The position numbers and the translations under genes are program-made. Source: a virus (taxonomy: Duplodnaviria > Caudoviricetes). Taken from it: a stretch of 38,872 bases of DNA. Every line of letters begins with the position of its first letter. Position 1 is the stretch's first letter. Where the stretch lies: IMG/VR virus record IMGVR_UViG_3300044983_000270, positions 1-38,872 of that record. The stretch is one strand, 5' to 3'. This document shows, one piece after another, positions 1-19,735 of this stretch. Under the pieces are notes generated by a model. It was not told the origin of the DNA, made no database searches, and saw nothing but the letters and a program-made list of their open reading frames with translations.

Positions 1-97
1 TTGATTGTAATTTTTCCCTTAGTTCCCCACACTCTTGTCTTTGTTGTTCTTGTAAACAATGCCATGATATTATTTTCCACTACCGGTGGCCGCGGGT

Positions 98-643
98 TTA
101 ATTGTGTTTTGTGTTTGTGCTCAAACCGTCGGCTGTCCAGTGTGAATCCTGTATAAGCCGAAAGGTTTTTACAATTGCATATCCAATAACTTTTACATAC
201 TCGTATTTTACACCATAGTCATCTGCGTTTAAAGCGGTCATGACTTTTTGTTCCAGCTTTTCAGGAGTTGATTCACCCAAATCATTTGATGATACATGCT
301 TCGCTATTTCTCCCATGATGATATTGGATATCGTACTTTCTGCCTGGAACATGCGCTGATAAAGTGTTTCAATATTTGATATAGAGTATCCCGCGCAAAC
401 TACTATTGTAAGGGTTTTACCATCTCTTGTGGCGATTGTTTGCGGCGCCATTTGTACAACTCTAAGACGAGTGGATTGAAGAAAAATAGTATCGACAAAG
501 GGGATTCTGAAGTAAGTGCCTGCTGATAAAATTTTTATTTTCTTGCCCAGTCGTACCCTTATAGCCATTTCCCATGGCATTATTATAACCCACCATTGAA
601 ATATCCTGGTTAAATAGTCAAGAGTGTCTTTTATAAAGTTCAT
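98..643 (-). CDS. SPFH/Band-7 (stomatin/prohibitin-like) domain protein
   Basis: Motifs WVIIMPWEMAIRVRLGK..GTYFRIPFVDTI and QTIATRDG are typical of SPFH N-termini. Confidence 0.75.
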   Translation of the reverse strand: MNFIKDTLDYLTRIFQWWVIIMPWEMAIRVRLGKKIKILSAGTYFRIPFVDTIFLQSTRLRVVQMAPQTIATRDGKTLTIVVCAGYSISNIETLYQRMFQAESTISNIIMGEIAKHVSSNDLGESTPEKLEQKVMTALNADDYGVKYEYVKVIGYAIVKTFRLIQDSHWTADGLSTNTKHN

Positions 644-647
644 TTTA

Positions 648-1028
648 TTATTTTAAAATTGGTGCGTGATTGATGGTGTCTCCAAGTACATACCGCCAGC
701 ATTCATATTGTATAGTGTCTTTACCATTGTTTGTGGTACCGATCGGCGGACAGGTTGGTTTACCTAACCAATTATCACCTCGTGCAATTTCGTTTAAGAC
801 CAGCTGCAGGTTTCGGCCACACACTGTATCTACAAATGGAACTCCTGCAAACCGCTTTGGCCAAAGTGTATCGGCAACAGAATTGATAAGGCTTTTATCT
901 TTCCTGTATTTAAAGGATAATAAACAAGCCCGGTCGCATTGTACAGTAGTGCGTGGTGCCGGCAGCTGGGTTTTGCTGCATGATGCAAGCATCAATGCAA
1001 TAATGATAGATAAGATTTGTGTCGTCAT
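648..1028 (-). CDS. Putative lipoprotein
   Basis: Hydrophobic N-terminus ending in lipobox LASC; in operon orientation. Confidence 0.55.
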   Translation of the reverse strand: MTTQILSIIIALMLASCSKTQLPAPRTTVQCDRACLLSFKYRKDKSLINSVADTLWPKRFAGVPFVDTVCGRNLQLVLNEIARGDNWLGKPTCPPIGTTNNGKDTIQYECWRYVLGDTINHAPILK

Positions 1029-1041
1029 GATTTATATGGTT

Positions 1042-1548
1042 TTATTTTTTACAAGCTGAGCATAGATCTATCTCAACCCAATGACAGGGTGCGCCATTTC
1101 TTGCAATGCACTGCCTGCAATCTTCGTTTGTGCAGCCACATTCACGACATTTTGCTTTGCGCTGCCAGTAGATTATTTCTCCTTTGAAGGGGAGCTGGTG
1201 TGTTCTTCTCCACCAGGTGAACATAAGATCGAAAGATCCTTTTGGGTTTTGCTCTTTGGATCCACTTCTAAAACTAAAACCATCTGCCCAGGCTAAATGG
1301 TCTTTTTCTTTATCGGTAAGCGTTTTGTTATTAACAAGCACAGTCCCATTTTTCCGAATTACAATTGAGGACACGGCAATGATCTCTGACTGACCAAGCT
1401 TTCTGCAATACTTTGTTCTCAAGCCAAAAAATAAATATGCAGTTTGCCCGGGACGGGTTTTGTATCGGCGTTTCTTTCGTATGGTTTGGTTCTTTGATCC
1501 ATCAAGGACCATAGGAACAAATAGCGGTTTGAATGAGTATGCTGGCAT
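1042..1548 (-). CDS. ASCH/PUA-like domain protein with C-terminal Cys-rich zinc-binding module
   Basis: SFKPLFVPMVLDGSKNQTIR is ASCH-like (G-K-x-x-T-I-R); C-terminal CRECGC..C..C..CHW....CSAC. Confidence 0.65.
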   Translation of the reverse strand: MPAYSFKPLFVPMVLDGSKNQTIRKKRRYKTRPGQTAYLFFGLRTKYCRKLGQSEIIAVSSIVIRKNGTVLVNNKTLTDKEKDHLAWADGFSFRSGSKEQNPKGSFDLMFTWWRRTHQLPFKGEIIYWQRKAKCRECGCTNEDCRQCIARNGAPCHWVEIDLCSACKK

Positions 1549-1643
1549 AAGATTTTTGTTTTAAAGAGAAGGGCGGGAATGTTTGCTTAGGGGCCAACCT
1601 TAGTTTTAAACACTCCCGGCACCTTCTGTTGCTACTGATCAGA

Positions 1644-2129
1644 TCATGCAGGATTATCCTGCGGCTCTCCAACGTTGACACCGAAGCCAACCGCCATTTC
1701 TGCTTCGACGACTACCGGAAGCGTTCCTTCGATAGGAACTACGCCGTCACCTAAGTCCGCATCGGCTTTTACTTTTACAGTTGCAAAGCCGGGTGTGAGG
1801 AAATTCAATTTGAATTTCGTTTCATCGGTCGGATCTTCTTCAACCGTACACACATCCGTGTTATCGCTTTCATATTCTACACTGTCTGCCTGCACTTTTG
1901 CGGCATTGCCGTGACGATCCTGCGGTGATACGGTACCTGTTGCGAATTGATTGGGTTTAGCAATTACTGCCATGAGACCTCCTTTGATTTTGATTTGATT
2001 TATAATTAACTCCCAGATCAGCCCGGGAGTTTGTCCCGATGTACTACCAGCTTTGCCCAGCATGTATACAACAATTATTATTGCTGCGATGATGGCGATG
2101 CCGATGATTGTGTTTGCACTTGTTCCCAT
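1644..2129 (-). CDS. Membrane-anchored, acidic, Ig-like beta-sandwich protein (alternative start 1973)
   Basis: N-terminal TM (IIGIAIIAAIIIVVY); YESDNTDVCTV...GFATVKVKADA resembles Big-2 type Ig domains. Confidence 0.5.
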   Translation of the reverse strand: MGTSANTIIGIAIIAAIIIVVYMLGKAGSTSGQTPGLIWELIINQIKIKGGLMAVIAKPNQFATGTVSPQDRHGNAAKVQADSVEYESDNTDVCTVEEDPTDETKFKLNFLTPGFATVKVKADADLGDGVVPIEGTLPVVVEAEMAVGFGVNVGEPQDNPA

Positions 2130-2235
2130 TGTGATGTTTGTTTATTGCATTCAGAAATGATGTATGATAAAGTGAATATCATGATGAGCCATGACAGCCA
2201 CTCGTTACGCTTAAAGAATGGTGGATATTTTGCGT

Positions 2236-2391
2236 TCATGGTGTTTCGTTTTTTTGTGATCGTACCAGGTCAATAAAAAGAGCCAGTAAAAGAAAAGCCG
2301 GGATTAAAACAGGTGATACCGGTACTTGTGTCGCCATAGACACAAAAGCAGATCCAGCAAAGAGTGCAAAGAGTGTGTTTAAGAATCTCAT
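2236..2391 (-). CDS. Small hydrophobic protein (51 aa), not in the ORF track
   Basis: MRFLNTLFALFAGSAF...PAFLLLALFIDL; ATGA overlap with the stop of the upstream polX-like gene. Confidence 0.45.
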   Translation of the reverse strand: MRFLNTLFALFAGSAFVSMATQVPVSPVLIPAFLLLALFIDLVRSQKNETP

Positions 2392-3044
2392 CTTGTTTGG
2401 TTTTGTTGTTGATTGTATTTTCGATGCTCCGGATCGATGTATGCAAGACCCAACCAGGTGAAGAATTCACCTTCTGTTTTCCATACCGGTGGCAGTGTTG
2501 GATTTTTTATTGCTGGATTTAGCGTCCATCCTTTTTCATTACTGCCAATACATTCACCACGCTTGCGCAATCCAATATTTTTTGCACCGACCCAACCTTT
2601 ACGTGACCAGGCACCAGCCAGTATATGATGTGAGTATTCGGCACTACCGGTACGAATGGCATATTGCCTGTAGTAATCACCCGGCTGCGGCATGAACAGA
2701 TCCAGCTCGATACCAGGACAGGTTTGTGAAGTAGTGATAATCTTCATCATACGGCCTTCAACATTCCCGTATTTGATCTCCTTTGTTATGGTCATGAACG
2801 CCTCGACAAAGTTGCGATCGGTAACGAGCGCAGTGTCTTCAGGAAATAAGCCAACCTTCTTTTCTTCTTTTTTTGGTATGCATACAATTTCGATATCACT
2901 CACTTGCAGCTCCAGCCTGCGGATGCTGCCGGCGAGATGTATTTTTTCACAATGCGGCTCCAGCAGCTGATAGATGTGTGCGGCCACACGCTGCGCTTTG
3001 TCGAAAGCGAAGTAGGTTTTTTGTTTTGTTGGTTGGGTTGTCAT
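2388..3044 (-). CDS. DNA polymerase X/beta-like nucleotidyltransferase (palm and thumb only)
   Basis: AGSIRR...SDIEIV catalytic motif, ELDLF third carboxylate, RTGS thumb motif, E..F..LGL.YI.PE.R C-terminus. Confidence 0.8.
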   Translation of the reverse strand: MTTQPTKQKTYFAFDKAQRVAAHIYQLLEPHCEKIHLAGSIRRLELQVSDIEIVCIPKKEEKKVGLFPEDTALVTDRNFVEAFMTITKEIKYGNVEGRMMKIITTSQTCPGIELDLFMPQPGDYYRQYAIRTGSAEYSHHILAGAWSRKGWVGAKNIGLRKRGECIGSNEKGWTLNPAIKNPTLPPVWKTEGEFFTWLGLAYIDPEHRKYNQQQNQTR

Positions 3045-3271
3045 GGTTGTTTGATTACAAGGATTGCTTTTGTGTTTTGATGCTCTGCCATGTTGAGGCG
3101 ATTGAGTAATGCATCAAATTTTTTTTCCCATAGTTCCTTTTTTTGTTTTGCCTGGTAACCGAAATGAACATGCCAGTACTTTTGTGCGAACCGCATGTTG
3201 TGCCCGATATGCGCCAGTTCCAGGAATAGTTCCTTTAATTCTTGTTCGCTATCTATGTGGATGGTTGGCAT
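3041..3271 (-). CDS. Hypothetical phage protein
   Basis: Tightly packed in operon; 4-bp overlap with the next gene. Confidence 0.6.
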   Translation of the reverse strand: MPTIHIDSEQELKELFLELAHIGHNMRFAQKYWHVHFGYQAKQKKELWEKKFDALLNRLNMAEHQNTKAILVIKQP

Positions 3272-3272
3272 G

Positions 3273-3743
3273 TCATTTAAAATTTGATACTTTCTTCCAT
3301 GGGCGATCCGGTACTATTTCGAATCGCTTGTGTTGATTCATGAATTTTTGTTTTTCCTTTTCAGGATCCTGGCCAGGGCGAATGAATATGCAAGTCTTTG
3401 CGTCGATGCGGACACAGATCATTTCTTTCAGGTTGACTTCTTTTGTCTGATACTTTGATGTTTCTGGTTTTTTAATGATCGCATCACGCATGCGCTTGGA
3501 TGTTTTGTCCTGGTCCTTGAATCGCTGGCTGTTCTTTTTCTTTAGGTCCTTTTTTATTTGTGCATTGTGCAGCCGATCAGTAAGAGATAGTTTACCAAGT
3601 ATCGGCGTCTGTTCTTTGATAATACCCAATACTTGCTGCTCGGGTTTGTCAACTATCGATGCGATATCCTTGACGGATTTTTTTGACATTAATCCCTGAA
3701 TCAGCCGAAGCTCCAGTATCGATATATTATTTGCCGCTTGCAA
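3273..3743 (-). CDS. Hypothetical protein with possible N-terminal HTH
   Basis: KKSVKDIASIVDKPEQQV is an HTH-like segment; operon packing. Confidence 0.55.
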   Translation of the reverse strand: MQAANNISILELRLIQGLMSKKSVKDIASIVDKPEQQVLGIIKEQTPILGKLSLTDRLHNAQIKKDLKKKNSQRFKDQDKTSKRMRDAIIKKPETSKYQTKEVNLKEMICVRIDAKTCIFIRPGQDPEKEKQKFMNQHKRFEIVPDRPWKKVSNFK

Positions 3744-3990
3744 TTTGTTTTGTATCCTTTACTGGTTTTAGTTGAATTGTTTTGCCGGCTTTTGGTGGAC
3801 GATTGCCAAATGCAGCTGCCTTCACCATGTCAACCTCCTGCTTGTGTGAGTTGACTATAACAGTGGCCACACGGGAAAGTGCTTCAGCCCTGGATATTTC
3901 TTTTTCCAGATCAACTTTGGGATCTGCGAGTTTGTTCATTTGATTGAACAAAATTTTTCTAAGCTCTAAGGCTTCATTGTTGTTGCTCAT
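3727..3990 (-). CDS. Small helical phage protein coupled to the HNH-like gene
   Basis: LFNQMNKL...EISRAEALSRVATVIVNS; ATGA overlap with the upstream gene. Confidence 0.6.
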   Translation of the reverse strand: MSNNNEALELRKILFNQMNKLADPKVDLEKEISRAEALSRVATVIVNSHKQEVDMVKAAAFGNRPPKAGKTIQLKPVKDTKQIASGK

Positions 3991-4862
3991 GTTGTTTTAG
4001 ATTTTATTGTTCGGTTTAATTTTAACTGTGCTCTTTTCAGTTCAATCAGATCTTTATTTTTCAATACATCCTCGTACACATCCATCCCTGTTCTCCCAAC
4101 AATCGTGAACGCAACATATCCGTCAGTTAATCTCAGGCTTGAGCTATTGCGTTTCATATTGTCAACCTTCGTCATCAGATACCAATTGGATGGCTTGCAA
4201 TTGAGAGTATTACCATCTTTGCAGGCAAGCACATGTCCTTTTGGAACCGGACCGTTTTTCTTTTCCCAATTATATATCTGAAGCTCTTTCCATATTCCCT
4301 TGGAGATTCGGATGTATTTATGCGGCTGCTCGTTTCTATCTTTTCGCTGGCGAATAGTAATAGCACCATCATGCAATGAATTGTGATTGATGTTGCCTTT
4401 TTTAAACCTGGTGTCTGCTGTTTTGGCAATTGCCTCAGCACTCATGTACTCAGTTTGCTTTTTGCCTTTGTTAAGAGGTACATGACCCTTTTTAATTCTT
4501 GCTTCGGCGATGAATTTTTTAATAATGTGTCGCGGTGTTTTCAATCCCAACTGCCGCATTCTTGTAGCCACAAACGTGTCATTTCTTCCGATGATCGTTG
4601 CCATTCTTTTTAACGGGACCTTCAGATAACTGCGTTTGAGATATCGATCGATCTTAGGAGTAGAGCTTGTTATTCCTCTCAGTTTATCAGATCTGAATTT
4701 TGCCGATACTTTCTTAGGTACCTTCAATCCTAATTGCTTTTTTATTCGGTGGCAAGCGCCATCGTGCAGACCCAATTTGATGTCCATATCATGGCCGGAC
4801 ATCTTCAGGTAGTTCCGCCTGATGAAGTTTTTTTGCTTGTATGTTAATATCATCTTTGGCAT
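3987..4862 (-). CDS. HNH-endonuclease-like protein with N-terminal DNA-binding repeats
   Basis: KKGHVPLNKG and TRFKKG repeats; W.KKNGPVPKGHVLACKDGNTLNC..SN...DNMKRN beta-beta-alpha region, partly degenerate. Confidence 0.7.
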   Translation of the reverse strand: MPKMILTYKQKNFIRRNYLKMSGHDMDIKLGLHDGACHRIKKQLGLKVPKKVSAKFRSDKLRGITSSTPKIDRYLKRSYLKVPLKRMATIIGRNDTFVATRMRQLGLKTPRHIIKKFIAEARIKKGHVPLNKGKKQTEYMSAEAIAKTADTRFKKGNINHNSLHDGAITIRQRKDRNEQPHKYIRISKGIWKELQIYNWEKKNGPVPKGHVLACKDGNTLNCKPSNWYLMTKVDNMKRNSSSLRLTDGYVAFTIVGRTGMDVYEDVLKNKDLIELKRAQLKLNRTIKSKTT

Positions 4863-4863
4863 A

Positions 4864-5163
4864 TCATGTGAATTCGTATCGTTCGTTTTCTTGTACTATG
4901 ATTGTTTTGAATGGAAAGCTTTCAATGGGTACTTGTTTTATTTGATCCATGAGCGTAATGGATGCGCACCAGGTGATGTATTTGATCCCGTTGACTTCGA
5001 TCTGCAGATCCAAGCGCTGGCCATGGCCTTTGTCATATTTTGATTTTACGATCCGGAACCGATGAACTGATATCTCTTTGTTCAGGATCCTGACGATCTT
5101 GATCCGCTCACCAGTGAATGCCGGCGCCGGGGGTGCGATGTTTAAGTTTTTAAACAGATTCAT
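4864..5163 (-). CDS. Candidate DGR accessory protein (non-Avd, predicted beta-rich, 99 aa)
   Basis: Overlaps the RT 3' end by 14 bp; alternating hydrophobic beta-strand pattern unlike the helical Avd. Confidence 0.6.
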   Translation of the reverse strand: MNLFKNLNIAPPAPAFTGERIKIVRILNKEISVHRFRIVKSKYDKGHGQRLDLQIEVNGIKYITWCASITLMDQIKQVPIESFPFKTIIVQENERYEFT

Positions 5164-6109
5164 GCAATAAGGTTTTGATTAAATGGTTGCTGTTACAATG
5201 TTTTGCCCAACCCATATAGCTTGCGATGGATGCCGTGTTCTTTTGCATGGCAATCATTCGTGCAAAGTTTTTCTTAATGGTTTTTCTGAGGCGGATATGT
5301 GTGTGATAGAACACATATCCAACGAAGTCAATTCCTCTTGCCTCTACAGGGAATATCTGGTATGTTTCTTTCACCTGCAGTTTTAGTCGATCACTTAAAT
5401 AATTTTTGATACCGGATAGCAGTGTGTGAAGCTGCTGTTTGCCTGGAGCGAGAATAACCAAGTCATCAGCATAGCGGAAATAGTATTTTACTTTCTGCTC
5501 TTCCTTGATCCAGTGATCAAAGTAGGTGAGATAAAAGTTTGAAAGATATTGGCTGAGATAATTGCCGATCGGCAGACCAGGTGCGCTGTCAATTATTTCA
5601 TCCAGCAGCCAGATAAGATCTGGATCTTTAAATTTCCGTCTCAGCAATGATTTCAATACATGATGATCAATGGACGGATAAAACTTTTTAATATCTAGCT
5701 TCAGGCAATATTGCGTGCCTGGTACATCACGAAGCGCAGTCCTGACTTTATAAGCCGCTGCATGTATACCACGTTTCTTAATGCAGCTATATGTATCGGA
5801 TGTAAATGCTGCAACAAAGATTGGCTCCAAGATATTCATTACGGCATGATGAACTATGCGATGCGGGAAGTATGGCAATCGGAATATTTCTCTTTCTTTA
5901 GGCTCATATATTTTGAATGTTTGGTACCCGGATGTTCTATAGGTTTTGTTCAATAACTGTTGCTGCAGCTGTAAAATGTTTTGCTCGTTATTTTTCATAT
6001 GAAGCTGCACTCCGTATTGCCAATGCTTACCCTTGCCGGCTCGCTGATCAGCCAGCTGCAGGTTTTCTATGGTGCAAATGCTTTGATATATATTTCCGAT
6101 CCGTTTCAT
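5150..6109 (-). CDS. DGR reverse transcriptase
   Basis: LKLDIKKFYPSIDH, GLPIGNYLSQ (DGR-type SQ motif), YFRYADD, GIDFVGY; 319 aa with no maturase or endonuclease domain; adjacent TR and VRs. Confidence 0.97.
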   Translation of the reverse strand: MKRIGNIYQSICTIENLQLADQRAGKGKHWQYGVQLHMKNNEQNILQLQQQLLNKTYRTSGYQTFKIYEPKEREIFRLPYFPHRIVHHAVMNILEPIFVAAFTSDTYSCIKKRGIHAAAYKVRTALRDVPGTQYCLKLDIKKFYPSIDHHVLKSLLRRKFKDPDLIWLLDEIIDSAPGLPIGNYLSQYLSNFYLTYFDHWIKEEQKVKYYFRYADDLVILAPGKQQLHTLLSGIKNYLSDRLKLQVKETYQIFPVEARGIDFVGYVFYHTHIRLRKTIKKNFARMIAMQKNTASIASYMGWAKHCNSNHLIKTLLHESV

Positions 6110-6310
6110 TGACTTTGCTTTTTAAAACTGGTGTTCACTTTCATTACCAACCAGCTCTAATCTTGAATCATTTTTTGCGACTGTTGGCAGGGTTTGTATT
6201 GCTTTAGTTTAGCATAGGTGAACGCTGACATTCGAATTCGAGTTCCAGTTATCGTAATCGTTGTACGAGAGCCTGAAGCCTGAGACAGCGACAACGCAAT
6301 ACACAACCGG
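6110..6310 (-). ncRNA. DGR template RNA (5' leader, TR and spacer)
   Basis: Interval between target 1 and the RT containing the TR; 6296-6308 is complementary to 6191-6202; second hairpin near 6125-6156. Confidence 0.7.
6211..6284 (-). repeat. DGR template repeat (TR)
   Basis: CTCAGGCTTCAGGCTCTCGTACAACGATTACGATAACTGGAACTCGAATTCGAATGTCAGCGTTCACCTATGCT; rich in AAC/AAT codons, 19 adenines; ungapped match to two VRs. Confidence 0.96.
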
Positions 6311-6315
6311 TTTAA

Positions 6316-6759
6316 TTATGTATATAATTGATGATCGATATGCATTTTCAAAAAATGTTCTGCGAAAAATTTTTGCATGTCCCAATTGGGAAAGCAAAGG
6401 CGAACGCCGACACTCGAAGTCGAGAGCCCGTAATCGTAATCGTGGTACGAGAGCCCGAAGCCCGAGGGTCTCTTCTTATCGGCCTTTACGCGGAAGACAG
6501 GGAATCGCTTGTATTCATTCGTGTCTGTATAATCTGGCCGCCTGTTATCTTTTATTGCTTCGGCAATAATTGATAGCTGATAATCACGAACGATTCTTTT
6601 CTGATGTCTTTTTGCAATGCTTTTTACGATCGGCAATTTTGTTGGATCATCGCCCGTTATTTCGCAGGCATCTTCAAATGAGAGAACTTCATTTGGAAGA
6701 TTGTCGGGGCCGACCCCATACTTGGTGCAGAGCTTGATGAATTTTTTACTATGTGTCAT
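6316..6759 (-). CDS. DGR target protein 1 (147 aa; VR near the C-terminus, CLec-like GVRLCF end)
   Basis: Contains VR1 in frame: SGFGLSYHDYDYGLSTSSVGVRLCF. Confidence 0.92.
   Translation of the reverse strand: MTHSKKFIKLCTKYGVGPDNLPNEVLSFEDACEITGDDPTKLPIVKSIAKRHQKRIVRDYQLSIIAEAIKDNRRPDYTDTNEYKRFPVFRVKADKKRPSGFGLSYHDYDYGLSTSSVGVRLCFPNWDMQKFFAEHFLKMHIDHQLYT
6393..6466 (-). repeat. DGR variable repeat VR1
   Basis: 62/74 identical to the TR; 11 of 12 mismatches are at TR adenines. Confidence 0.95.
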
Positions 6760-6770
6760 ATTGGTTGGGT

Positions 6771-7259
6771 TTACCTGATTTTTAAATCTTCGTACACGTC
6801 ATTGAATTTTTTGCCGGCATCAATCGCATGATCAGGATTGAAAAAGCAAAGGCGAACGCCGACATCCGAACCCGAGCTCCAGTTACCGTAAACGTCGAAC
6901 GAGAGCCCGAAGCCCGAGGGTTTGGAAGGATCCTTCACGATCTTGTGCCATGGAAAGTGTTTCCACTGATCTGTATTGCCGGCATCAAGAACATTATCCT
7001 GATTGTACGTCTTAGCAATAAGCTTTCCTTTACGATATGCCAGTTCATCGATCGTTTCACCTGGTCGCAGATTATAATCATTTGCATTCGCGCCACTGAG
7101 ACGGATGATATCATCCCAGCCGCTTATTTCATCGCAGATGTTGCGTCGTGTGAACGCAATTGAAGGAAAGAAAAGCTTTAAAGCTTTTTGTATATCTGAG
7201 CAACCGCAGTTGTTGTATGCGTTGATCAGATCTTGTTTTTTGAGTTCAACTGTTTCCAT
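6771..7259 (-). CDS. DGR target protein 2 (162 aa), paralog of target 1
   Basis: Contains VR2 in frame: SGFGLSFDVYGNWSSGSDVGVRLCF. Confidence 0.92.
   Translation of the reverse strand: METVELKKQDLINAYNNCGCSDIQKALKLFFPSIAFTRRNICDEISGWDDIIRLSGANANDYNLRPGETIDELAYRKGKLIAKTYNQDNVLDAGNTDQWKHFPWHKIVKDPSKPSGFGLSFDVYGNWSSGSDVGVRLCFFNPDHAIDAGKKFNDVYEDLKIR
6845..6918 (-). repeat. DGR variable repeat VR2
   Basis: 61/74 identical to the TR; all 13 mismatches are at TR adenines. Confidence 0.96.
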
Positions 7260-7270
7260 GATTTATAGTT

Positions 7271-9838
7271 TTAAAAAGGTAAATCGTCGTTGGGTTTATA
7301 ATCACTGTTATCTGCACCTGCTGATCCTTCGTTGTAAAGGGATCCTTGTGTTGGCTCGGATGAGTTGCTGATCATTTTGTTTTCAAAATTTGTCTGTTCG
7401 TCTACCTGGTACCTGGTCAGCTCGTCCGGTGTAAGGAAGTCTTCGCGTTTGAAAACATATGGCCGGCCATTGCCTTCTACTTCTACCCGGGTCATATGCT
7501 TGTTACCATCTTTAAACACTTCATCCCATTTGGGATAGGAGTGGCGATTGTTTACGTATATCTTCTCCGGATTGCCATACAGATCTTTATTTTCAGGATC
7601 GAGCTTGTGATACTGATCGATCTTCATTTCTTCTTTCAAAACTTTTTCTATATAGTTGGCCTCGTAGCGGCCATTGAAAAATTCTTTGTGTATGGCAATG
7701 CGTGTCATTTTTATTTCATTCACTCCAAAGTCCATGAACATGTCACGAATACGCTGACGTATTTCTTTTTGCACAGTGGAGCGGCTGAATTCAATTACCT
7801 TTTTCATTGCTTCAGTTTTCAGCAATGCTTCATGAAACCACATGCGCCCTAGCTGCTCCGTTTTTATTTTTCGTTGATTGAGGAATGAAAGGAATGCTGG
7901 TATTTCTTCTATGAATGTTTTTGCGATATGCGGGTTCTCCTGCTTTAGTACCGGTACTTTTATGATCCAGTACCGGATATCCTCATCATTCATATATATG
8001 AAGTTCTCTTCGTTGTTTGTGATGAAGATGAACTTGATAAAGCAATCGAGCTCTACATGATCCTTGCCTTTTGCATTCATCGTGATCTTATCCGCAGTGG
8101 ATAATGATTTTACTTTTTCAACTACATGCTGCTTGTCAATTTTTGTTTCATCGCAGATGACAACAAGCTTTGTGGCCCAGTGTGCATTGAAGTCACCGGC
8201 AAGATCCTGGTTGCCGACTATGGCGACATTGGCTGAGAATATCAGCTTTATCAATTTTGCCAGCGTGGTTTTGCCGGTCTTATTTTCTTTACTTACCAGG
8301 CACAGGATGGGAAGCTTCTCTGCAGGATACTGATATAAGACCTGTATATAATCCAGAGCGAGATCAAAGTTTGAGTATTCCAGTTTTTCACCGGTCTTTG
8401 GATGTTTGAATGACACTTTACGATCGCCAAAGACATGATGTAAAAAGCCGATGATGGAGGGGCAATCTTCCTCAGTGCATGGATCATCATCGGGTTTATA
8501 TTCCAGCGGCGAATAAACATTAAAGCAATTGTGAATGATTTGCTGAAAGTTTGTATTGTCAGGAACATTGCAAAATTCTTCGAAGCGTGGTATGTGCTTT
8601 ACAAAATCCCGGCTATGATCATCGATAATGGTTTGCTTTCTGCGCCCTTTAAATATTTTCTCCAGCTGCTTATACTTGTTGGGCTTGTGTATGAATTTGT
8701 AATAATCATCCCCCACCCGGAAGTAATCTTTAGCCCGTGCCGGCACCACTACATCACATTCGCCTGTTTCATCGTTGAATTTATATTGCGTACCGTGGAA
8801 GACAAAGTCTTTCCCTTTCAGATCCGGACGGCGCTCTACATGGAACTGATAAAATTTTGTTGGATTATCGAGATGAAAATGTTCACGCACCCTGCCGGTG
8901 TGTATTGTGATATCGAATTTGTTGAAGTAATGCCCGGGCTTTGATACTGCCATCAGATCGTTTACTATTTGTTCTTGCTTATCCGGAAGTGAACAGAGCA
9001 GATCATCAAGGCCTTTTAACTGCTCACGATTAAACTCGTTGGGATTTGATTGTATAATATTGTATATGTCGATGTATGCCCAATATTTGTTTATCGATTT
9101 AAAGTCATAGAGCAGTTGATTAAATTTTTGAATAGAGTGATAGAAGTTGTTGGGACGCTTGTACAGATCCTTTAATTTTTTGCTTCCATCGGCATCTGTT
9201 GTTTCCAGATCTTTACTGATGTCAACTGCATCACCATCGGTAAGCCATATCATGTGGCGGACATTGCATCTTTCAATTAGCTGTATGATCTCCGGGTGAA
9301 TGGTTTTTTTCTCTTTGTCCTCCATGTGTGTGATGGACGGGAGTCCAATGATGTAGAGCCCGGCCATGAATCCTTTCCAGCATTTGAAAAAACCTTCGGT
9401 GAGTACAAGCGTATGAATGTCGGTTTTGCTTTCGTACGCATCGAGAATGTTCGGTGAGTATAGTGGATGACTGCCATGGCCTTTCGGCATGAGGTATTTC
9501 AATATATCACCACCATCTTTTACGATCGGTTTCTCCAGGCGAATGATGGACCAGTCTTTTTTAATGCGGCTGCTTTCTTTCTCGATGCGGATATTGTTGC
9601 GGGTGATAGTGTAAGGAACGATCTCGATGCCCCGGGGATGTGATTTAAAAACGGGTACGGGTTGAAGTTCATTTGAATTGGACTCGGAATTGTAACGCCA
9701 TAGCTTAACCTGGTTGAGTTCGGCAGTGATGCCAAGCGCTGCGAGCCGCTGTTCATAGTACGAGCTCTCGTATGCATCACTGTGACCGTTGCCGGGTTGG
9801 GTAGTAAGTAGGGGCGTTATAGTTTCTGTTTCGGACAT
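7271..9838 (-). CDS. Primase-helicase (N-terminal TOPRIM-like domain, C-terminal P-loop NTPase, DUF5906-like)
   Basis: LTEGFFK, WLTDGD and KGLDDLL TOPRIM motifs; Walker A ENKTGKTT, Walker B VVICDE, FIFITNN sensor. Confidence 0.85.
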   Translation of the reverse strand: MSETETITPLLTTQPGNGHSDAYESSYYEQRLAALGITAELNQVKLWRYNSESNSNELQPVPVFKSHPRGIEIVPYTITRNNIRIEKESSRIKKDWSIIRLEKPIVKDGGDILKYLMPKGHGSHPLYSPNILDAYESKTDIHTLVLTEGFFKCWKGFMAGLYIIGLPSITHMEDKEKKTIHPEIIQLIERCNVRHMIWLTDGDAVDISKDLETTDADGSKKLKDLYKRPNNFYHSIQKFNQLLYDFKSINKYWAYIDIYNIIQSNPNEFNREQLKGLDDLLCSLPDKQEQIVNDLMAVSKPGHYFNKFDITIHTGRVREHFHLDNPTKFYQFHVERRPDLKGKDFVFHGTQYKFNDETGECDVVVPARAKDYFRVGDDYYKFIHKPNKYKQLEKIFKGRRKQTIIDDHSRDFVKHIPRFEEFCNVPDNTNFQQIIHNCFNVYSPLEYKPDDDPCTEEDCPSIIGFLHHVFGDRKVSFKHPKTGEKLEYSNFDLALDYIQVLYQYPAEKLPILCLVSKENKTGKTTLAKLIKLIFSANVAIVGNQDLAGDFNAHWATKLVVICDETKIDKQHVVEKVKSLSTADKITMNAKGKDHVELDCFIKFIFITNNEENFIYMNDEDIRYWIIKVPVLKQENPHIAKTFIEEIPAFLSFLNQRKIKTEQLGRMWFHEALLKTEAMKKVIEFSRSTVQKEIRQRIRDMFMDFGVNEIKMTRIAIHKEFFNGRYEANYIEKVLKEEMKIDQYHKLDPENKDLYGNPEKIYVNNRHSYPKWDEVFKDGNKHMTRVEVEGNGRPYVFKREDFLTPDELTRYQVDEQTNFENKMISNSSEPTQGSLYNEGSAGADNSDYKPNDDLPF

Positions 9839-9841
9839 GGA

Positions 9842-10264
9842 TTATTTATGTAGATCAAAAATTGGATTGCGATCGGGACCTGCGAGGTCTGATATCTGTT
9901 TTAGTATTGCAGCTCGTGCTGCTACCTTTTCTTTTATGATTGCTGATACAATACGGAGAGCTTCTGTCTCTGTGAATACATCGAGTATCTCTTGCCGGCA
10001 GGGTGGAAGCTTATCGTTTCTGCATTCTGGTTTTGGCATACCAGGTAATTGAACATACCATGGTGGAAGCTCTACGCCCATCTGTTGTTGCGATGCTTCG
10101 TTTATTTTGTGCTGGTCGAGATTATGACAGACGATATGCATTGAGAAATTGCATTTGTCGCTTGACAGGTGCTCAGCGATCTTACCATAAGCTTTTATCG
10201 CTTTATCATAGTTGTTGTATTGCGTGGCCAGCTCGGCGATCTGTATTGCGATGTTTGGATTCAT
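9842..10264 (-). CDS. Hypothetical phage protein (start moved to MNPNIAIQ)
   Basis: ATGA overlap with the upstream small ORF; abuts the primase start. Confidence 0.6.
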   Translation of the reverse strand: MNPNIAIQIAELATQYNNYDKAIKAYGKIAEHLSSDKCNFSMHIVCHNLDQHKINEASQQQMGVELPPWYVQLPGMPKPECRNDKLPPCRQEILDVFTETEALRIVSAIIKEKVAARAAILKQISDLAGPDRNPIFDLHK

Positions 10265-10428
10265 TGGTTTATCATTATGAAGAAAGCAATAGTGCATGCT
10301 ACCCATGTGAGAAATGCAAGACCTCCGATGAACAGGGCAATGATCATAAAGGTTCGGTGAAATTTTACCGGCTTGCCAGTGTAGCGATCGATTGTGCTGT
10401 CCAGAAGGACAGAGAAAAAGTTTTTCAT
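10261..10428 (-). CDS. Small membrane protein (55 aa), not in the ORF track
   Basis: MKNFFSVLLD...FMIIALFIGGLAFLTWVACTIAFF; fills the gap between its neighbours exactly. Confidence 0.55.
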   Translation of the reverse strand: MKNFFSVLLDSTIDRYTGKPVKFHRTFMIIALFIGGLAFLTWVACTIAFFIMINQ

Positions 10429-10429
10429 A

Positions 10430-10798
10430 TCAGTAGATTATTGTTAGCGATTTTGAATTGAGATAATCGTTGATATCCTGGTTGAATCTTTTTTCAACTT
10501 CTTTGCCTGTGATGGTGATGGCATTTGCGATATCAACATAGGTTTGCAAGAACTTCCAGGATCGGGTACCGTCTGCATTGTTGACCACTATATATTTTCC
10601 ATCAGAACTTTTCTCAACGTATTTTTCTTTTATTGTATCCACCTGCTTTGTTATTATTTGCAGATGTGATGTTGCCTGCTGATAGAATAATTGAATCTTG
10701 CTGTGCTCAAGCATTGCAATTGCGGGGTGGTTCTTCATTATGTGCTGCATGTCTTTTTCAATTGACATCAGCTGGGCGTAAGTGAGATTGTGGCGCAT
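10430..10798 (-). CDS. Hypothetical phage protein
   Basis: 122-aa ORF with an A-rich leader in the early operon. Confidence 0.65.
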   Translation of the reverse strand: MRHNLTYAQLMSIEKDMQHIMKNHPAIAMLEHSKIQLFYQQATSHLQIITKQVDTIKEKYVEKSSDGKYIVVNNADGTRSWKFLQTYVDIANAITITGKEVEKRFNQDINDYLNSKSLTIIY

Positions 10799-10885
10799 GA
10801 AAGGTTTTTATAGTTTTTCAAAAAAACCAGGCGATGAGAACAAGGCCCGGGAATGTTACTGAGTCCTCTGACTAGGAGGTAGCGT

Positions 10886-11137
10886 TTATGACGATAGCTC
10901 GAACTGAACATTCAGGTCTGCTATCTGTCCATCTTTTAAATCGCGAAATGAGTTCCTGTTATAGTTGTCGGTGTATGTGTATCGATTTCTATCTTCATCA
11001 ATGAAGTAGTCTTCGAATACCCGTTTCACTTTTATGTCAGGATGTTGTTGTTTGATGGCGCGGGTGAGTGCATCATCATAATGGGAATCGTAAGTGGTGT
11101 TCCTGGTGTGGTTACGTTTTAGAATAACATTAGGCAT
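10886..11137 (-). CDS. Hypothetical phage protein (start moved to MPNVILK)
   Basis: A-rich leader; follows the stop of the upstream small ORF. Confidence 0.55.
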   Translation of the reverse strand: MPNVILKRNHTRNTTYDSHYDDALTRAIKQQHPDIKVKRVFEDYFIDEDRNRYTYTDNYNRNSFRDLKDGQIADLNVQFELSS

Positions 11138-11147
11138 GGCACTTGTT

Positions 11148-11318
11148 TTAATTTTGTTTTTTAACTGTTGCAAGATGAAAGTCGTTGGGGTCCCGAAGTG
11201 CCCATACATCGCCGCCATCTATTATGCGGATGTATCCTGCATAGGTTAATGACTTTATAGTTTCTATGATCAGAGCCAGATCTGCAGTGCTGATTATAAT
11301 AGTGTCATGATGCGGCAT
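11148..11318 (-). CDS. Small hypothetical protein (56 aa), not in the ORF track
   Basis: MPHHDTIIIS...VKKQN fills the gap after the cro-like gene. Confidence 0.45.
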   Translation of the reverse strand: MPHHDTIIISTADLALIIETIKSLTYAGYIRIIDGGDVWALRDPNDFHLATVKKQN

Positions 11319-11340
11319 GGGCTAAAAATTTTTTGATTGA

Positions 11341-11571
11341 TTAAGCGAGTTGTTTTAGCGCATTGAGTTTGCGACGAATCTTTTTCACATTGGCTTCTGA
11401 TCCGGAGCCAACCGTAACAATACGAATGAGCGTAACGCGATCGATCTTGAACAGCGTAGCGAAAGCGGTATCAGAGTTTGCTGCTTGTCTTTGTTCGTCA
11501 AGTGAGGTTAGTTCGTCGGGAGAGAGCTTAACCGACTTTTCGGATTTCTTACCAGTTTGTGGTATTGACAT
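11341..11571 (-). CDS. Cro-like HTH regulator (start MSIPQTG)
   Basis: First early gene, divergent from the repressor; SDTAFATLFKIDRVTLIRI is HTH-like. Confidence 0.6.
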   Translation of the reverse strand: MSIPQTGKKSEKSVKLSPDELTSLDEQRQAANSDTAFATLFKIDRVTLIRIVTVGSGSEANVKKIRRKLNALKQLA

Positions 11572-11596
11572 AAAAGGATTTGGTTTGTTATATTTG
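11565..11596 (+). promoter_or_regulatory. Putative Bacteroidota sigma-A promoter for the repressor
   Basis: TTG (11565)-N21-TATATTTG (11589-11596) matches the -33/-7 consensus. Confidence 0.5.
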
Positions 11597-11617
11597 TTGA
11601 ACAATTGATGAACAGGA

Positions 11618-11650
11618 CAAATATAATATTGCAAAAAGCAATATTCCAAA
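11618..11650 (-). promoter_or_regulatory. Putative early lytic promoter with an operator in its spacer
   Basis: TTTG-N21-TATATTTG on the minus strand; palindrome AATATTGC-N5-GCAATATT at 11625-11645. Confidence 0.7.
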
Positions 11651-11659
11651 TCTAATGTG

Positions 11660-11674
11660 TTGCAAAATGCAATA
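11660..11674. promoter_or_regulatory. Second operator-like site
   Basis: TTGC-AAAAT-GCAATA. Confidence 0.6.
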
Positions 11675-11699
11675 AGTTATTCACAATCGCAAAACCAAC

Positions 11700-12275
11700 A
11701 TGACAAAAACCGACTATAGAGCGGAAGCCGATAAGTATTTAAACGTATTAAAAAATAAAGGGCTGAACCGTGCTCAGATTGAATCTGAGCTAGGATACGC
11801 AAACAACTACATAGATCAGCAATTATCTAAAGGAGGCAACAAACGTTTTGTGAAAGCGTTGCGGGATCTTGTGGATAAGTTGCAAAAAGCAATACCGGAT
11901 AAATCAGATCAATTCCTTATAGAAGAGGATATTCCTGAATATGGCTTAACCTTTAAGTCAATCATGAATCAGCAGAATAAATTGATCATATCTCTCAATA
12001 AACAATCCGAAACGGCAAATGAGATCCTGCGCCGGCTTGCGGACAATGTGGAGAAGCGCGTAGATAAAATAGATGTTAATTTAATCGATGCTCTAGGTCG
12101 TATGGACTCTCTAAAGATGGATATCTACTCGGAGAGGATGGTCGTGCTTCAGAGCCTGGCGAGGCTTGAGAAGAAACCGGAGAACTCACTACTTTCTGAA
12201 GCGGACAATATAATTTCCTCAATGCTGGAGCAACAGCAGAAAAAACAGGGCAACACTCCCGGTAAGAGCATGTAG
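11700..12275 (+). CDS. CI-like repressor (N-terminal HTH, helical C-terminus)
   Basis: KGLNRAQIESELGYANNYIDQQL HTH; the only sizeable plus-strand gene at the switch; IEEDIPEY linker. Confidence 0.7.
   Translation: MTKTDYRAEADKYLNVLKNKGLNRAQIESELGYANNYIDQQLSKGGNKRFVKALRDLVDKLQKAIPDKSDQFLIEEDIPEYGLTFKSIMNQQNKLIISLNKQSETANEILRRLADNVEKRVDKIDVNLIDALGRMDSLKMDIYSERMVVLQSLARLEKKPENSLLSEADNIISSMLEQQQKKQGNTPGKSM
11880..11894. promoter_or_regulatory. Third operator-like site, inside the repressor gene
   Basis: TTGC-AAAAA-GCAATA, identical core to 11629-11643. Confidence 0.5.
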
Positions 12276-12313
12276 CGCAATTCGGTTTGGTTAAAAAGGT
12301 GGTTCGCATGTTT

Positions 12314-12342
12314 GATATTTTTTTGGTCCAGAAAAAAATATC
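12314..12342. repeat. Perfect inverted repeat with 11-bp arms downstream of the repressor
   Basis: GATATTTTTTT-GGTCCAG-AAAAAAATATC. Confidence 0.6.
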
Positions 12343-12856
12343 GGAGCCTTAACTGGTTTGCTTCAAGGAATGGTGGATGCGGCGGATGAGGTGTAAAGGT
12401 TACAACGTGAGAAGTATATAATCATTACTTCGATAAATGTTAAAAAAATATTAATGAGTGCCACCAAGCGTTACTTTTAGGTCACGCTTGTGTAGGTAGC
12501 TTCCCGTCTGAAATGCAGACCGCATAAAGGTTTCATCAATTTTATTTTCAACAACTCAAAAAAGTTGATTTGTAGCGTTTAAAGTTTCAATGTGTTGGAT
12601 TACAACAAAAAATGAGACGTTTGTTTTTTTAAAATAGAAAAAGTGGGCTTCGCAATTGCTGTGCCCCTGTCAAAAATTTCGGCGGATATAGCCAATTTTA
12701 CAGTAATATGATTTATAGATTGATATATAATACACTGTACATAAGGCTATAGGATCACGATTGAGGCATTCAATTCAGATCTGAATACTACTGTTCTTGT
12801 TGTATTGACTATATCAATAGCGGATGTTGTTTTGTTTATAAATAGAAGTATATCCG

Positions 12857-14446
12857 CTATCTAAATCCAAGCGGCGTCTTCTGTTGGATGTAGGTTATTA
12901 GCTTTTGTTTTAGCACTGCATCATTACATTGATCAAATGTATCAGAGAAGTGAGTGGTCTCAGATTGATCGAGATCTGTCTCAAGCTCACCAGACTTATC
13001 TTTAATCGTTTTCTTTTTAGGCCCTATTTTGGCTGCTGATCCTGAGATGCTGGTGATTAACTTATCACAGCGTTTATTTATTCGGATATCCATTGAGTCT
13101 CCGTTCTTGTTCTCCATCCATTCTTTTGTATCGATGTACTTCTGGTAATGTCCTGGCTGCTTACCGGTATACACATCAGTAACATCCCAGTTGCCAAGCC
13201 TTAGTATCTTCTTTACGATCTCCCAGTATTCATCGGCCTCAACTCTGTTACCTCTTGCAGTAAGATCGTATATATAATAGATGTTTCGATTAACATGGTT
13301 CTTATGCGATTCATTGAATAGCTTAACTGCATCAGTTAAGCCTTTAGGATGTAGGGTATATATGTTGTTCACATAATTAAGCGATTCACGTATACGACCA
13401 GGCAGTGCCGATATCTGAGCCACTGTTATAGGAGCAACGCTGTGTTGGTAATCGGCAGCAATTATTAATGGCAATCTCAAATCGATATCGTTCTCGATAT
13501 CATAAACGTGAACGGCCTTCTTAAAGGCAGGATAAAAGGTCTCCCCGGGTACATCAGGATCCTGATTCTTGTATATAACTTTCCAGTCGTGCTTTGTCGA
13601 ATTCTTTCTTTTATCATAATACCATTTGTCACCCATTATCGGTCTCACATCATCAGCGCTGATCTCGGCAACATACAGAAGATTTTTTCTCAATGATGAT
13701 AATCGCTTCTCATCTTTATCCAATTCAATTTTTACGTATGCGGGTATTTTCTTATTTGTGTATAGGTTTTTTATGTTGATTACATGCGTCTGCAGGTTCT
13801 TAATGATCTCTGCCTTTTTGTAATCGCACAGTTTACGTTTATTAAGCAACCATTTTATTTTAACCGGATCCGCATTCTTGTCTGTAGCAAAAAACTTCCC
13901 CATATAACTCGGAAAGTGTTTAAATAACTTATCACTGGCTTCAACAGGCCGGAAGATTGGAAATATCTCATCTTCGAGAACTTTCTTCTTCATGAATTTT
14001 ACCTCATCAAAAACGCCCCACTGAGCGCTTATACCATTTGCAGAAGCTAATCTCTTCAGAGAAACAAGCTGCAGCACTGTTCCATTGCACCAGGTCCATG
14101 CGTGTTTGTATTTTGGATCCACAACACCGGCATATGGTTTATCCCAGTGAGCTGGCGGCGGCTTGCCAATAACATAATGCACCCCTTCAATAAAACCTTT
14201 GCTGGCTAAAAAAGATTTAATAGGTGGAATAGTATTGTCATTCAAATGCTCAAATGAAAGCCCTACGATCACACCAGTAGATCTTGGCATTTCAAAAACC
14301 CTGCGAATTATATACAGTGAAATTCCGACAGATGTTTTGAAGGATCCGCGGCCGGCAAATAAATAAGTTTCATTAGCATCGATCAGGTGTATTTCTGCAT
14401 GCTGAGGTGGAACGTAAATATTATGAACATTTTCATTCATCGTCAT
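12857..14446 (-). CDS. terL: Terminase large subunit
   Basis: Walker A AGRGSFKT, Walker B GVFDEVK, nuclease IAADY and HFSDTFD. Confidence 0.9.
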   Translation of the reverse strand: MTMNENVHNIYVPPQHAEIHLIDANETYLFAGRGSFKTSVGISLYIIRRVFEMPRSTGVIVGLSFEHLNDNTIPPIKSFLASKGFIEGVHYVIGKPPPAHWDKPYAGVVDPKYKHAWTWCNGTVLQLVSLKRLASANGISAQWGVFDEVKFMKKKVLEDEIFPIFRPVEASDKLFKHFPSYMGKFFATDKNADPVKIKWLLNKRKLCDYKKAEIIKNLQTHVINIKNLYTNKKIPAYVKIELDKDEKRLSSLRKNLLYVAEISADDVRPIMGDKWYYDKRKNSTKHDWKVIYKNQDPDVPGETFYPAFKKAVHVYDIENDIDLRLPLIIAADYQHSVAPITVAQISALPGRIRESLNYVNNIYTLHPKGLTDAVKLFNESHKNHVNRNIYYIYDLTARGNRVEADEYWEIVKKILRLGNWDVTDVYTGKQPGHYQKYIDTKEWMENKNGDSMDIRINKRCDKLITSISGSAAKIGPKKKTIKDKSGELETDLDQSETTHFSDTFDQCNDAVLKQKLITYIQQKTPLGFR

Positions 14447-15697: not shown

Positions 15698-15702
15698 GGC
15701 TC

Positions 15703-15739
15703 TAAATTCGGCGGATGTTGCAGCAAGCGAAAGGACAGG
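15703..15739 (-). promoter_or_regulatory. Putative late promoter (terminase operon)
   Basis: CCTGTCCTTTC-N22-TTTA, one of four copies. Confidence 0.7.
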
Positions 15740-15772
15740 ATGTATCCTGAGCGGAGTCGAAGGGTGCGGATG

Positions 15773-16084: not shown

Positions 16085-16086
16085 GA

Positions 16087-19733: not shown

Positions 19734-19735
19734 AG

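What the first reader, a model, noticed from the sequence alone, without database searches (positions are those of the whole stretch)
4864..7259. Compact two-target DGR embedded in the phage early/replication operon
Seen: on the minus strand the order is primase, target 2, target 1, TR, RT, 99-aa gene. The 74-nt TR aligns without gaps to VR1 (12 mismatches, 11 at TR adenines) and VR2 (13 mismatches, all at adenines). Known: this is the signature of DGR mutagenic retrohoming, whose model case (Bordetella phage BPP-1) diversifies a tail-fibre protein. Inference: here one template diversifies two genes located about 30 kb from the fibre genes in this window and apparently co-transcribed with the replication gene.
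Basis: partly seen in the sequence, partly recalled or inferred. Interest (0 to 1): 0.92.

Follow-up and report, generated by a model that had tools for sequence, protein, structure and literature searches.

The report
Active phage mutator diversifying paired proteins
A soil phage carries a targeted-mutation cassette (a DGR) whose single template differs from two small neighbouring non-tail genes almost only at adenines, and a second isolate differs at such sites too; the layout is already catalogued, the proteins likely bind a partner inside the infected cell, and the gene behind the enzyme is predicted to be a single-stranded-DNA-binding helper.

Summary
Confirmed. On the minus strand: primase, T2 (162 aa), T1 (147 aa), TR (6284-6211), RT (YADD, closest solved relative BPP-1 bRT), orf99. 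TR differs from VR1 at 12 sites (11 adenines) and from VR2 at 13 (all adenines). Both targets vary in nature: an independent 2017 sample differs at 6 sites in VR2, all TR-adenine positions, with TR unchanged, and a second VR1 allele exists. It is not unusual. Of 131 RT relatives with enough flank, 123 have two or three such targets. The layout is in Wu 2018 (Lineage 3, entries 120/121), and the target family is Roux 2021 PC_00007 (non-structural, unknown function). This scan reported it before on other DNA. The primase neighbour is incidental; an early-gene setting is general. No avd was found. Orf99 is a predicted OB-fold/SSB-like protein. It accompanies the RT in 152 of 156 relatives, is fused to it in 3, and follows DGR RTs of two archaeal viruses. 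The 4 loci lacking it are exactly those with an Enc34-type SSB nearby. A covarying stem encloses TR, like the BPP-1 'cPRT Stop'. Target ligand and fold are unresolved; co-transcription was not tested.

The parts
6771..7259 (-). T2, target gene 2 (162 aa); long paralog with an N-terminal helix pair; Roux PC_00007 / phrog_11581 family
   Evidence: phrog_11581 E 3.5e-7; AF2 pLDDT 89
6845..6918 (-). VR2 (codons S115-C138); 13 mismatches to TR, all at TR adenines; differs at 6 TR-adenine sites in an independent sample
6316..6759 (-). T1, target gene 1 (147 aa); same family, TR-proximal subfamily
   Evidence: (phrog_11581 E 4.9e-12)
6393..6466 (-). VR1 (codons S99-C122); 11 adenine mismatches plus 1 other; a second allele is seen in run X1
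6296..6308 (-). 5' strand of the long-range RNA stem that encloses TR (likely equivalent of the BPP-1 cPRT Stop duplex)
   Evidence: comparison
6211..6284 (-). Template repeat (TR), 74 nt, 19 adenines; about 14 live adenines in 9 codons
   Evidence: 0 differences in the X2 contig covering 6152-6387
6191..6202 (-). 3' strand of the TR-enclosing stem
6122..6189 (-). Spacer RNA: short hairpin 6189-6176 followed by an A run, and a second covarying hairpin around 6152-6130; overlaps a sub-threshold Rfam RT-14 match (6122-6217, 33.9 bits against a cut-off of 48.1)
5150..6109 (-). DGR reverse transcriptase, 319 aa, YADD
   Evidence: phrog_1423 E 4.7e-123; bRT 8ub7 E 5.2e-45; next best 1.5e-17
4864..5163 (-). 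orf99: basic (pI 9.6) 99-aa protein, predicted OB fold, overlaps the RT end by 14 nt; candidate accessory of Avd-less DGRs
7271..9838 (-). Primase/helicase-like gene (DUF5906, phrog_1156); context only, adjacency not conserved

Best explanation
This is a four-gene DGR cassette (T2-T1-TR-RT-orf99) with no detected avd, whose one template differs from both small target genes almost only at adenines; it likely works by mutagenic retrohoming during the phage's early lytic phase, likely with the predicted OB-fold orf99 protein as single-stranded-DNA-binding helper, to vary a binding surface that the two proteins likely use on a partner inside the infected cell. Steps: (1) inferred: the cassette is read as part of the leftward early transcript. 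(2) Covariation shown, function inferred from BPP-1: the RNA between the T1 stop and the RT start folds into a 12-bp stem that encloses TR, plus two spacer hairpins, and so positions and limits cis-primed reverse transcription. (3) Established for the family: the RT misreads template adenines. (4) Inferred: orf99 protects or delivers the single-stranded cDNA; a phage SSB can stand in where orf99 is lost. (5) Outcome shown: the cDNA overwrites about nine codons in either VR (about 2e8 peptides each, by my count from the codon table), while the flanking Gly and Arg stay fixed. (6) Inferred: T2 and T1 are an old, position-specific pair that act together as soluble variable binders, most likely against host defence or regulatory proteins that differ between host strains.
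For: TR/VR pattern. Independent study X2: of 10 differences listed over window 1-20000, 6 lie in VR2, all 6 at TR-adenine sites (8e-11 within that 792-nt contig); TR has 0 differences. Run X1 holds two VR1 alleles differing at 4 sites, 3 of them TR adenines. RT class; YADD in 153 of 157 full-length RTs. 105 of 131 relatives have two targets, 18 three, 6 one, 2 none (window removed). In 6 of 6 near-complete relatives the TR matches only small paralog genes, no tail gene. Only 3 of 297 targets have a hydrophobic 19-mer above 1.6, and Roux 2021 reports 1.6% predicted structural. Flanking families are early genes: transposase, MuB-like, Gam, primases, DnaB, methyltransferases, HNH. Best cross-locus hit keeps position for 107 of 112 T1 and 102 of 112 T2; one natural T2-T1 fusion (L070). 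Stem: 97% of cells paired, 6 of 12 pairs with compensatory change, slid controls 33-44% paired. orf99: 152 of 156 relatives; fused to RT in L106, L139, L156 and in P0131; both matches among 50,697 phage records directly follow a DGR RT; 3 of 3 hits among 400 sampled genomes lie just downstream of a DGR-type RT; top fold matches are mostly SSB-type OB folds; the 4 loci lacking orf99 are the only 4 of 161 with an Enc34-type SSB homolog in the fetched flank.
Against: No expression, binding or retrohoming data. No ligand is known, and the T2 model has no clear match among solved structures, so 'binder' rests on family knowledge and the Tyr/Asp/Gly/Ser-rich variable segment. The OB-fold match is modest (Rim1 Z 5.9, rmsd 2.1, 65 aligned; under the tool's level of 8). 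orf99 is not essential: complete genome G404 has three diversified targets and no detectable homolog, and none was found in crAss cr55_1, LMMB or Perkons. The SSB anticorrelation rests on about two events (L062/L064/L068 are near-identical; L152 shares the same replication module) and on flanks of at most 6 kb. The X2 contig has depth 4.4 and X1 may be the source sample. The summed 4663 versus 468 mismatch count is circular because my detector selected adenine-biased pairs. No TR/VR pair was found in the 3.3-kb loci L164-L166, so their DGR status rests on RT similarity.
Confidence: 0.6

Rival explanations
1. The DGR is real, but T1 and T2 are virion or adsorption accessories (small receptor-binding or ejected proteins) that happen to be encoded among early genes, so the cassette works like the BPP-1 tail DGR.
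For: Most phage DGR targets are tail proteins, and Roux 2021 leaves open that PC_00007 are unrecognised structural proteins. The VR ends in a G-x-R-L strand weakly like the tail target of crAss cr55_1 (hhalign probability 33%, 29 columns). No TR-matched tail gene exists in these genomes, so a tropism role would have to fall to T1/T2.
Against: Early-gene context across unrelated phage types; 110-165 aa with no anchor or fibre domain; no match to tail families or to named viral structural models; 1.6% predicted structural.
Confidence: 0.15
2. orf99 is simply the phage's own replication SSB (phi29-like); the DGR sits beside it and does not need it.
For: One Atlas neighbour cluster is 44% Phi29_Phage_SSB. 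Five near-complete orf99-bearing genomes have no PF00436 or PF10991 match, so orf99 may be their only SSB. The anticorrelation with Enc34 SSB also fits plain replacement of one phage SSB by another.
Against: It follows the RT inside tail modules of archaeal viruses ANMV-1 and vir525, overlaps or abuts the RT stop in most loci, is fused to RT, and rides with RT across Mu-like and other backbones.
Confidence: 0.2
3. The variable proteins act phage-against-phage (superinfection exclusion or recognition of competing phage proteins), or the variation serves to escape a host sensor that recognises this essential phage protein, and not to bind a host target.
For: Compatible with soluble intracellular proteins under strong scaffold conservation (Gly 246 of 248, Arg 246 of 246). 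Family members also occur without an RT close by (L174; crAss-like models).
Against: The cassette lies on the Cro-like side of the divergent switch (weak HTH match), which would be off in a lysogen. Escape alone does not explain keeping two distinct paralogs.
Confidence: 0.2
4. A relic or inactive repeat pair beside a retron or group II intron RT.
For: NCBIfam's best RT match is the group II intron model, far below its cut-off (117.6 against 300 bits).
Against: bRT is the best solved relative by 28 orders of magnitude; intact frames; population variation at TR adenines.
Confidence: 0.01

Closest known systems
Wu et al. 2018 (PMC5758913) Lineage 3, architecture A1, target code f4: entries 120 (Galbibacter, TG-TG-TR-RT) and 121 (Pedobacter arcticus A12). 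Seen: sections 8 (parts 1-2) and 22, passages, supplementary table rows.
   Same: Two small tandem targets, TR, RT, no avd, no stem-loop after VR. My locus L098 is P. arcticus A12 and its RT, TR, VR and target offsets equal those of entry 121.
   Different: Wu lists no accessory gene and one target for entry 121. L098 has a second target and is not among the loci lacking orf99.
Roux et al. 2021 (PMC8144416) target cluster PC_00007 'Phage_other'. Seen: section 9, passages, supplementary files 5, 10, 11 by search; files 9 and 12 not searched.
   Same: Entries t120 and t121 are assigned to PC_00007; described as non-structural/unknown; the number 1,288 stands beside it in a supplementary list.
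   Different: In the parts I saw, no function, fold, pairing or accessory gene is given.
Bordetella phage BPP-1 DGR (mtd-avd-TR-brt); Handa et al. preprint 10.1101/2023.10.23.563531 (passages seen)
   Same: RT class; adenine-specific TR-to-VR mutagenesis; upstream:downstream duplex followed by a short stem-loop and adenosines.
   Different: BPP-1 has Avd, a single tail-fibre target with the VR at the C-terminus, and a DNA hairpin after the VR. Here: no Avd, two small targets with about 22 residues after the VR, no post-VR hairpin signal. Handa analysed only Avd-containing DGRs plus five archaeal genomes.
Distal second targets of Quimbyvirus/LoVEphage (Benler 2021, PMC8008677; Dahlman 2025, PMC12629997; passages seen)
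   Same: A phage DGR target outside the structural module, proposed to act in phage-host conflict.
   Different: There the primary target is a tail-module gene and the other is remote. Here both targets are adjacent and no tail target was found.
ANMV-1 archaeal virus DGR (Paul 2015, PMC4372165; passages seen)
   Same: Carries an orf99 homolog (AJP62065, 43.5% identity) directly behind the RT.
   Different: Its target is AdtA beside tail-fibre genes. The record calls the gene hypothetical; the figure legend names one ORF 'Avd', and I could not see which.

Membership tests
Diversity-generating retroelement | DGR-class RT with intact catalytic motif | tested here: met
   bRT E 5.2e-45 versus 1.5e-17 for the next best; phrog_1423; YADD
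Diversity-generating retroelement | TR/VR pair differing at TR adenines, VR inside a coding sequence | tested here: met
   24 of 25 mismatches at adenines
Diversity-generating retroelement | VR varies at TR-adenine sites among near-identical genomes while TR is constant | tested here: met
   X2: 6 of 6 VR2 differences, TR 0 differences; X1: 3 of 4 VR1 differences
Diversity-generating retroelement | IMH/IMH* fixed 3' difference between VR and TR | tested here: inconclusive
   TR Ser/His codons at the 3' end are Gly 246 of 248 and Arg 246 of 246 in targets: a fixed boundary or purifying selection
Diversity-generating retroelement | RT-dependent retrohoming | not testable with these tools
   needs a bench assay
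BPP-1-type DGR (architecture B) | avd gene | tested here: not met
   PF22296 bAvd not found in the window record (64% complete) or in 4 complete relatives; no room for it between T1 and RT
BPP-1-type DGR (architecture B) | GC-rich hairpin after VR | tested here: not met
   mean z -0.23 over 179 VRs, 7% below -2
Wu Lineage 3 / Roux PC_00007 | Avd-less TG(-TG)-TR-RT with small f4/PC_00007 targets | tested here: met
   L098 equals entry 121, which is PC_00007; its targets match my family profile at E 1e-50 and 5e-43
Wu architecture A1 | no accessory gene | tested here: not met
   orf99 accompanies RT in 152 of 156 relatives; its accessory function is inferred
C-type lectin DGR target | CLec fold around the VR | tested here: inconclusive
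   AF2 model confident; no chain at Z 5 or more; no Foldseek match at E 0.001; only a 29-column weak match to a crAss tail target
SSB / OB-fold nucleic-acid-binding proteins (orf99) | OB-fold barrel | tested here: inconclusive
   top rows are mostly SSB/PriB/editosome OB folds, Z 5.9, rmsd 2.1, 65 aligned; Atlas lead Phi29 SSB and PF28814; no Pfam-A match in the local copy
SSB / OB-fold nucleic-acid-binding proteins (orf99) | binds single-stranded nucleic acid | not testable with these tools
   needs a binding assay
Group II intron / retron | RT over the family cut-off, with maturase domain or msr-msd | tested here: not met
   117.6 of 300 bits and 65.7 of 235 bits; no intron or retron RNA in Rfam

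The most novel reading that the evidence does not exclude
A widespread Avd-independent DGR branch uses an SSB-like OB-fold subunit, replaceable by the phage's own SSB, in place of Avd. It uses it to run an intracellular antibody-like library: a T2/T1 heterodimer of a fold unlike C-type lectins whose two variable loops together neutralise strain-variable host defence proteins early in infection.
Probability: 0.25. Interest if true: 0.8.

Novelty: new variant of a known kind. Interest (0 to 1): 0.5.

Why it matters
Two open questions become testable with a 2.4-kb cassette that is shown to vary in nature: how Lineage 3 DGRs work without Avd (Wu 2018 states they must differ), and what the large non-structural target family PC_00007 does. 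An SSB-like helper would point to the poorly understood cDNA integration step and give a compact two-protein mutagenesis tool. Variable intracellular binders would extend phage DGRs from host attachment to counter-defence. The locus itself is one of hundreds and is not surprising.

Tried and rejected
Primase linkage rejected as incidental. Remote tail target: none in the window or in 6 near-complete relatives; the missing part of this record is untested. RT-orf99 complex prediction gave no answer (score 0.00); not used either way. The T2 model has no clear match in PDB by VIA-align (best Z 4.5, rmsd 5.3) or Foldseek; this does not show a new fold. No consistent Pfam match for 148 targets or 108 orf99 proteins; no solved-structure sequence match. 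Search for longer fused target forms (322-2000 aa) found none, weak evidence. Locus scans with T1 or orf99 as single queries found no relative. C-terminal extensions of crAss RTs: cr55_1 weak match to orf99 (probability 17%), LMMB none; the LoVEphage third RT frame matches weakly (E 0.001); not counted. The amino-acid enrichment test at AAY codons was discarded because its neutral baseline came from fixed boundary sites. Promoter/terminator scan at chance level for promoters (34 against 32). The single-sequence RNA fold is not better than shuffles (z -0.22); only covariation supports the stem. No RNA holder listed. Runs X3-X6 hold small shares; their TR-like pieces run on into unlike sequence and were not used. 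CH1 accessory of Wu (160-169 aa, acidic) was considered for T2 and not pursued: T2 carries a VR; CH1 sequences were not compared. Paper searches that found no description of orf99 as a DGR component. The library lacks most subscription papers; the name of Pfam PF28814 and Wu's PAG1-4 sequences were not seen and may already cover it.
Full report
Observation. The window is a linear virus record, 64% complete by CheckV. On the minus strand lie a primase/helicase-like gene (9838-7271; DUF5906, phrog_1156), T2 (7259-6771, 162 aa), T1 (6759-6316, 147 aa), a 206-nt gap, the RT (6109-5150) and a 99-aa gene (5163-4864) that overlaps the RT end, then an HNH gene. The 74-nt TR (6284-6211, 19 adenines) matches VR1 with 11 adenine mismatches plus one other and VR2 with 13 adenine mismatches; the binomial chance is about 1e-13. 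No third target exists in the window.

It is a DGR and it varies in nature. The RT's closest solved relative is Bordetella bRT (E 5.2e-45; next best 1.5e-17), and group II and retron models stay far under their cut-offs. Six public runs hold part of the stretch; I laid all six. X2, a 2017 rhizosphere run from another study, is nearly identical over the covered part of 1-20000. Of 10 listed differences, 6 lie in VR2 and all 6 map to TR adenines; the contig over TR has none. X1, which may be the source sample, holds two VR1 alleles that differ at three TR-adenine sites and at the one non-adenine site, where the second allele has the TR base. These are contigs of low depth (2.5-4.4), so frequencies are unknown. 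All these changes fall in the central codons. Across 272 distinct targets, the TR's 3' Ser and His codons are read as Gly (246 of 248) and Arg (246 of 246) in the proteins. About 14 of the 19 adenines, in nine codons, are therefore live; the rest mark a fixed boundary or strict selection.

It is a common, portable cassette. The 80 best viral and 80 best genomic RT relatives (of 592 and 242 found) come almost all from Bacteroidota or their phages, which is my basis for the host. Of 131 with at least 1.5 kb upstream, 105 have two targets, 18 three, 6 one and 2 none. All 306 detected target entries belong to one family of mostly 110-165 aa. Flanking families are early genes of unrelated phage types: transposase, MuB-like, Gam, several primases, DnaB, methyltransferases. 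Of 92 loci with full flanks, 39 carry a Mu-type marker cluster and 17 the window's primase type; no relative has the primase abutting the first target. Neighbours are nearly always on the same strand (68 against 2 upstream, 77 against 3 downstream). In six relatives at least 90% complete, the TR matches only these paralogs (one copy in G407 needs a gap). So 'early and non-tail' is general, and 'beside the primase' is chance. In this window a weakly HTH-like ORF (11571-11341) and a divergent ORF (11700-12275), with palindromes between them, suggest a Cro/repressor switch with the cassette on the Cro side. This and co-transcription are inference.

Targets. T1 and T2 are about 40% identical within a locus (median) but resemble their positional counterparts in other phages more (107 of 112 and 102 of 112), so the pair is old. 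One locus fuses them (L070). The T2 model (pLDDT 89) is mainly helical with a two-strand hairpin; the VR covers the second strand and the following, less confident loop. No solved structure matches clearly, and viral model matches are uncharacterised proteins, some from crAss-like phages. CLec membership is unresolved. Membrane segments are essentially absent (3 of 297). I commit to soluble variable binders acting in the infected cell. The ligand is unknown.

DGR RNA. In 40 of the 85 diverse sequences prepared, the region from T1 stop to RT start shows a 12-pair stem joining the sequences before and after TR: 97% of cells paired, six pairs with compensatory changes in up to 16 sequences, slid controls 33-44% paired overall. 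A short hairpin with an A run and a second hairpin follow. This is the layout of the BPP-1 cPRT Stop (passages of 10.1101/2023.10.23.563531), whose survey covered Avd-containing DGRs. Here it holds in an Avd-less branch; no bAvd was found in the window or four complete relatives.

orf99. Homologs accompany the RT in 152 of 156 relatives, mostly overlapping its stop, and are fused to it in three loci. The family has 1038 representatives at 50% clustering. Searches started from orf99 itself give the same link: both matches among 50,697 phage records follow DGR RTs of archaeal viruses with tail-region targets, and the 3 hits in 400 sampled genomes lie just downstream of a related RT. The model is a small barrel whose best matches are mostly SSB-type OB folds at modest Z; the Atlas links it to a Phi29-SSB cluster, an RT-fused cluster and Pfam PF28814, whose name I could not see. 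The four loci that lack it (L062, L064, L068, L152) are the only ones of 161 with an Enc34-type SSB homolog in the flank, and five complete orf99-bearing genomes show no PF00436 or PF10991 match. That is about two events. It fits either a replaceable DGR helper or a plain phage SSB. Against a universal role, no homolog was detected in G404, cr55_1, LMMB or Perkons.

Comparison with print. Wu 2018 lists this layout as Lineage 3, A1, f4 (entries 120, 121), and entry 121 is my L098. Roux 2021 assigns both to PC_00007, non-structural/unknown. Benler 2021 and Dahlman 2025 describe distal non-tail second targets and suggest counter-defence. My searches found no paper that treats orf99 as a DGR part; unseen supplements (Wu's PAG sequences, bioRxiv files) and PF28814 may bear on this. 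Earlier notes of this scan describe the same cassette and the OB-fold helper idea on other DNA. They gave me the Wu and Roux leads, which I checked.

Verdict. A real, active member of a catalogued DGR branch, with an apparently undescribed fourth component and targets of unknown function.

Noticed in passing
window 11455-11509: Run X1 has a minor contig with four clustered differences (11455, 11456, 11482, 11509) inside the small HTH-like ORF 11571-11341; no TR match there. Could be an immunity variant or a related phage.
   Followed up: no
window 11626-11644, 11660-11672, 11880-11892: Three TTGC-N5-GCAA palindromes between and within the divergent ORFs 11571-11341 (-) and 11700-12275 (+); operator-like.
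   Followed up: partly
window 2388-3044 (-): 218-aa gene with weak PolX / DNA polymerase beta thumb matches in the early region.
   Followed up: no
L161:4974-5270 (ANMV-1) and L162:4965-5252 (vir525): Archaeal virus DGRs carry an orf99 homolog directly behind the RT, annotated hypothetical.
   Followed up: yes
L062/L064/L068 (G404) and L152: The cassette lacks orf99, is followed by a DUF2800 and Enc34-type SSB module (with PolA in G404), and has a third target 4-6 kb downstream of the RT.
   Followed up: partly
L161: about 6347-6410 and 1418-1481: My scan of the ANMV-1 locus flagged a second adenine-biased repeat pair 4.9 kb apart, reaching into the annotated capsid tail fibre gene; not checked.
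   Followed up: no
L070:4918-5796; L106, L139, L156:6001-7245: Natural fusions: T2-T1 in one 292-aa frame with two VRs; RT-orf99 in 414-aa frames.
   Followed up: partly
window 12857-19733 (-): Three large ORFs (529, 599, 615 aa) with no Pfam or PHROG match; no terminase or integrase was identified in the record.
   Followed up: no
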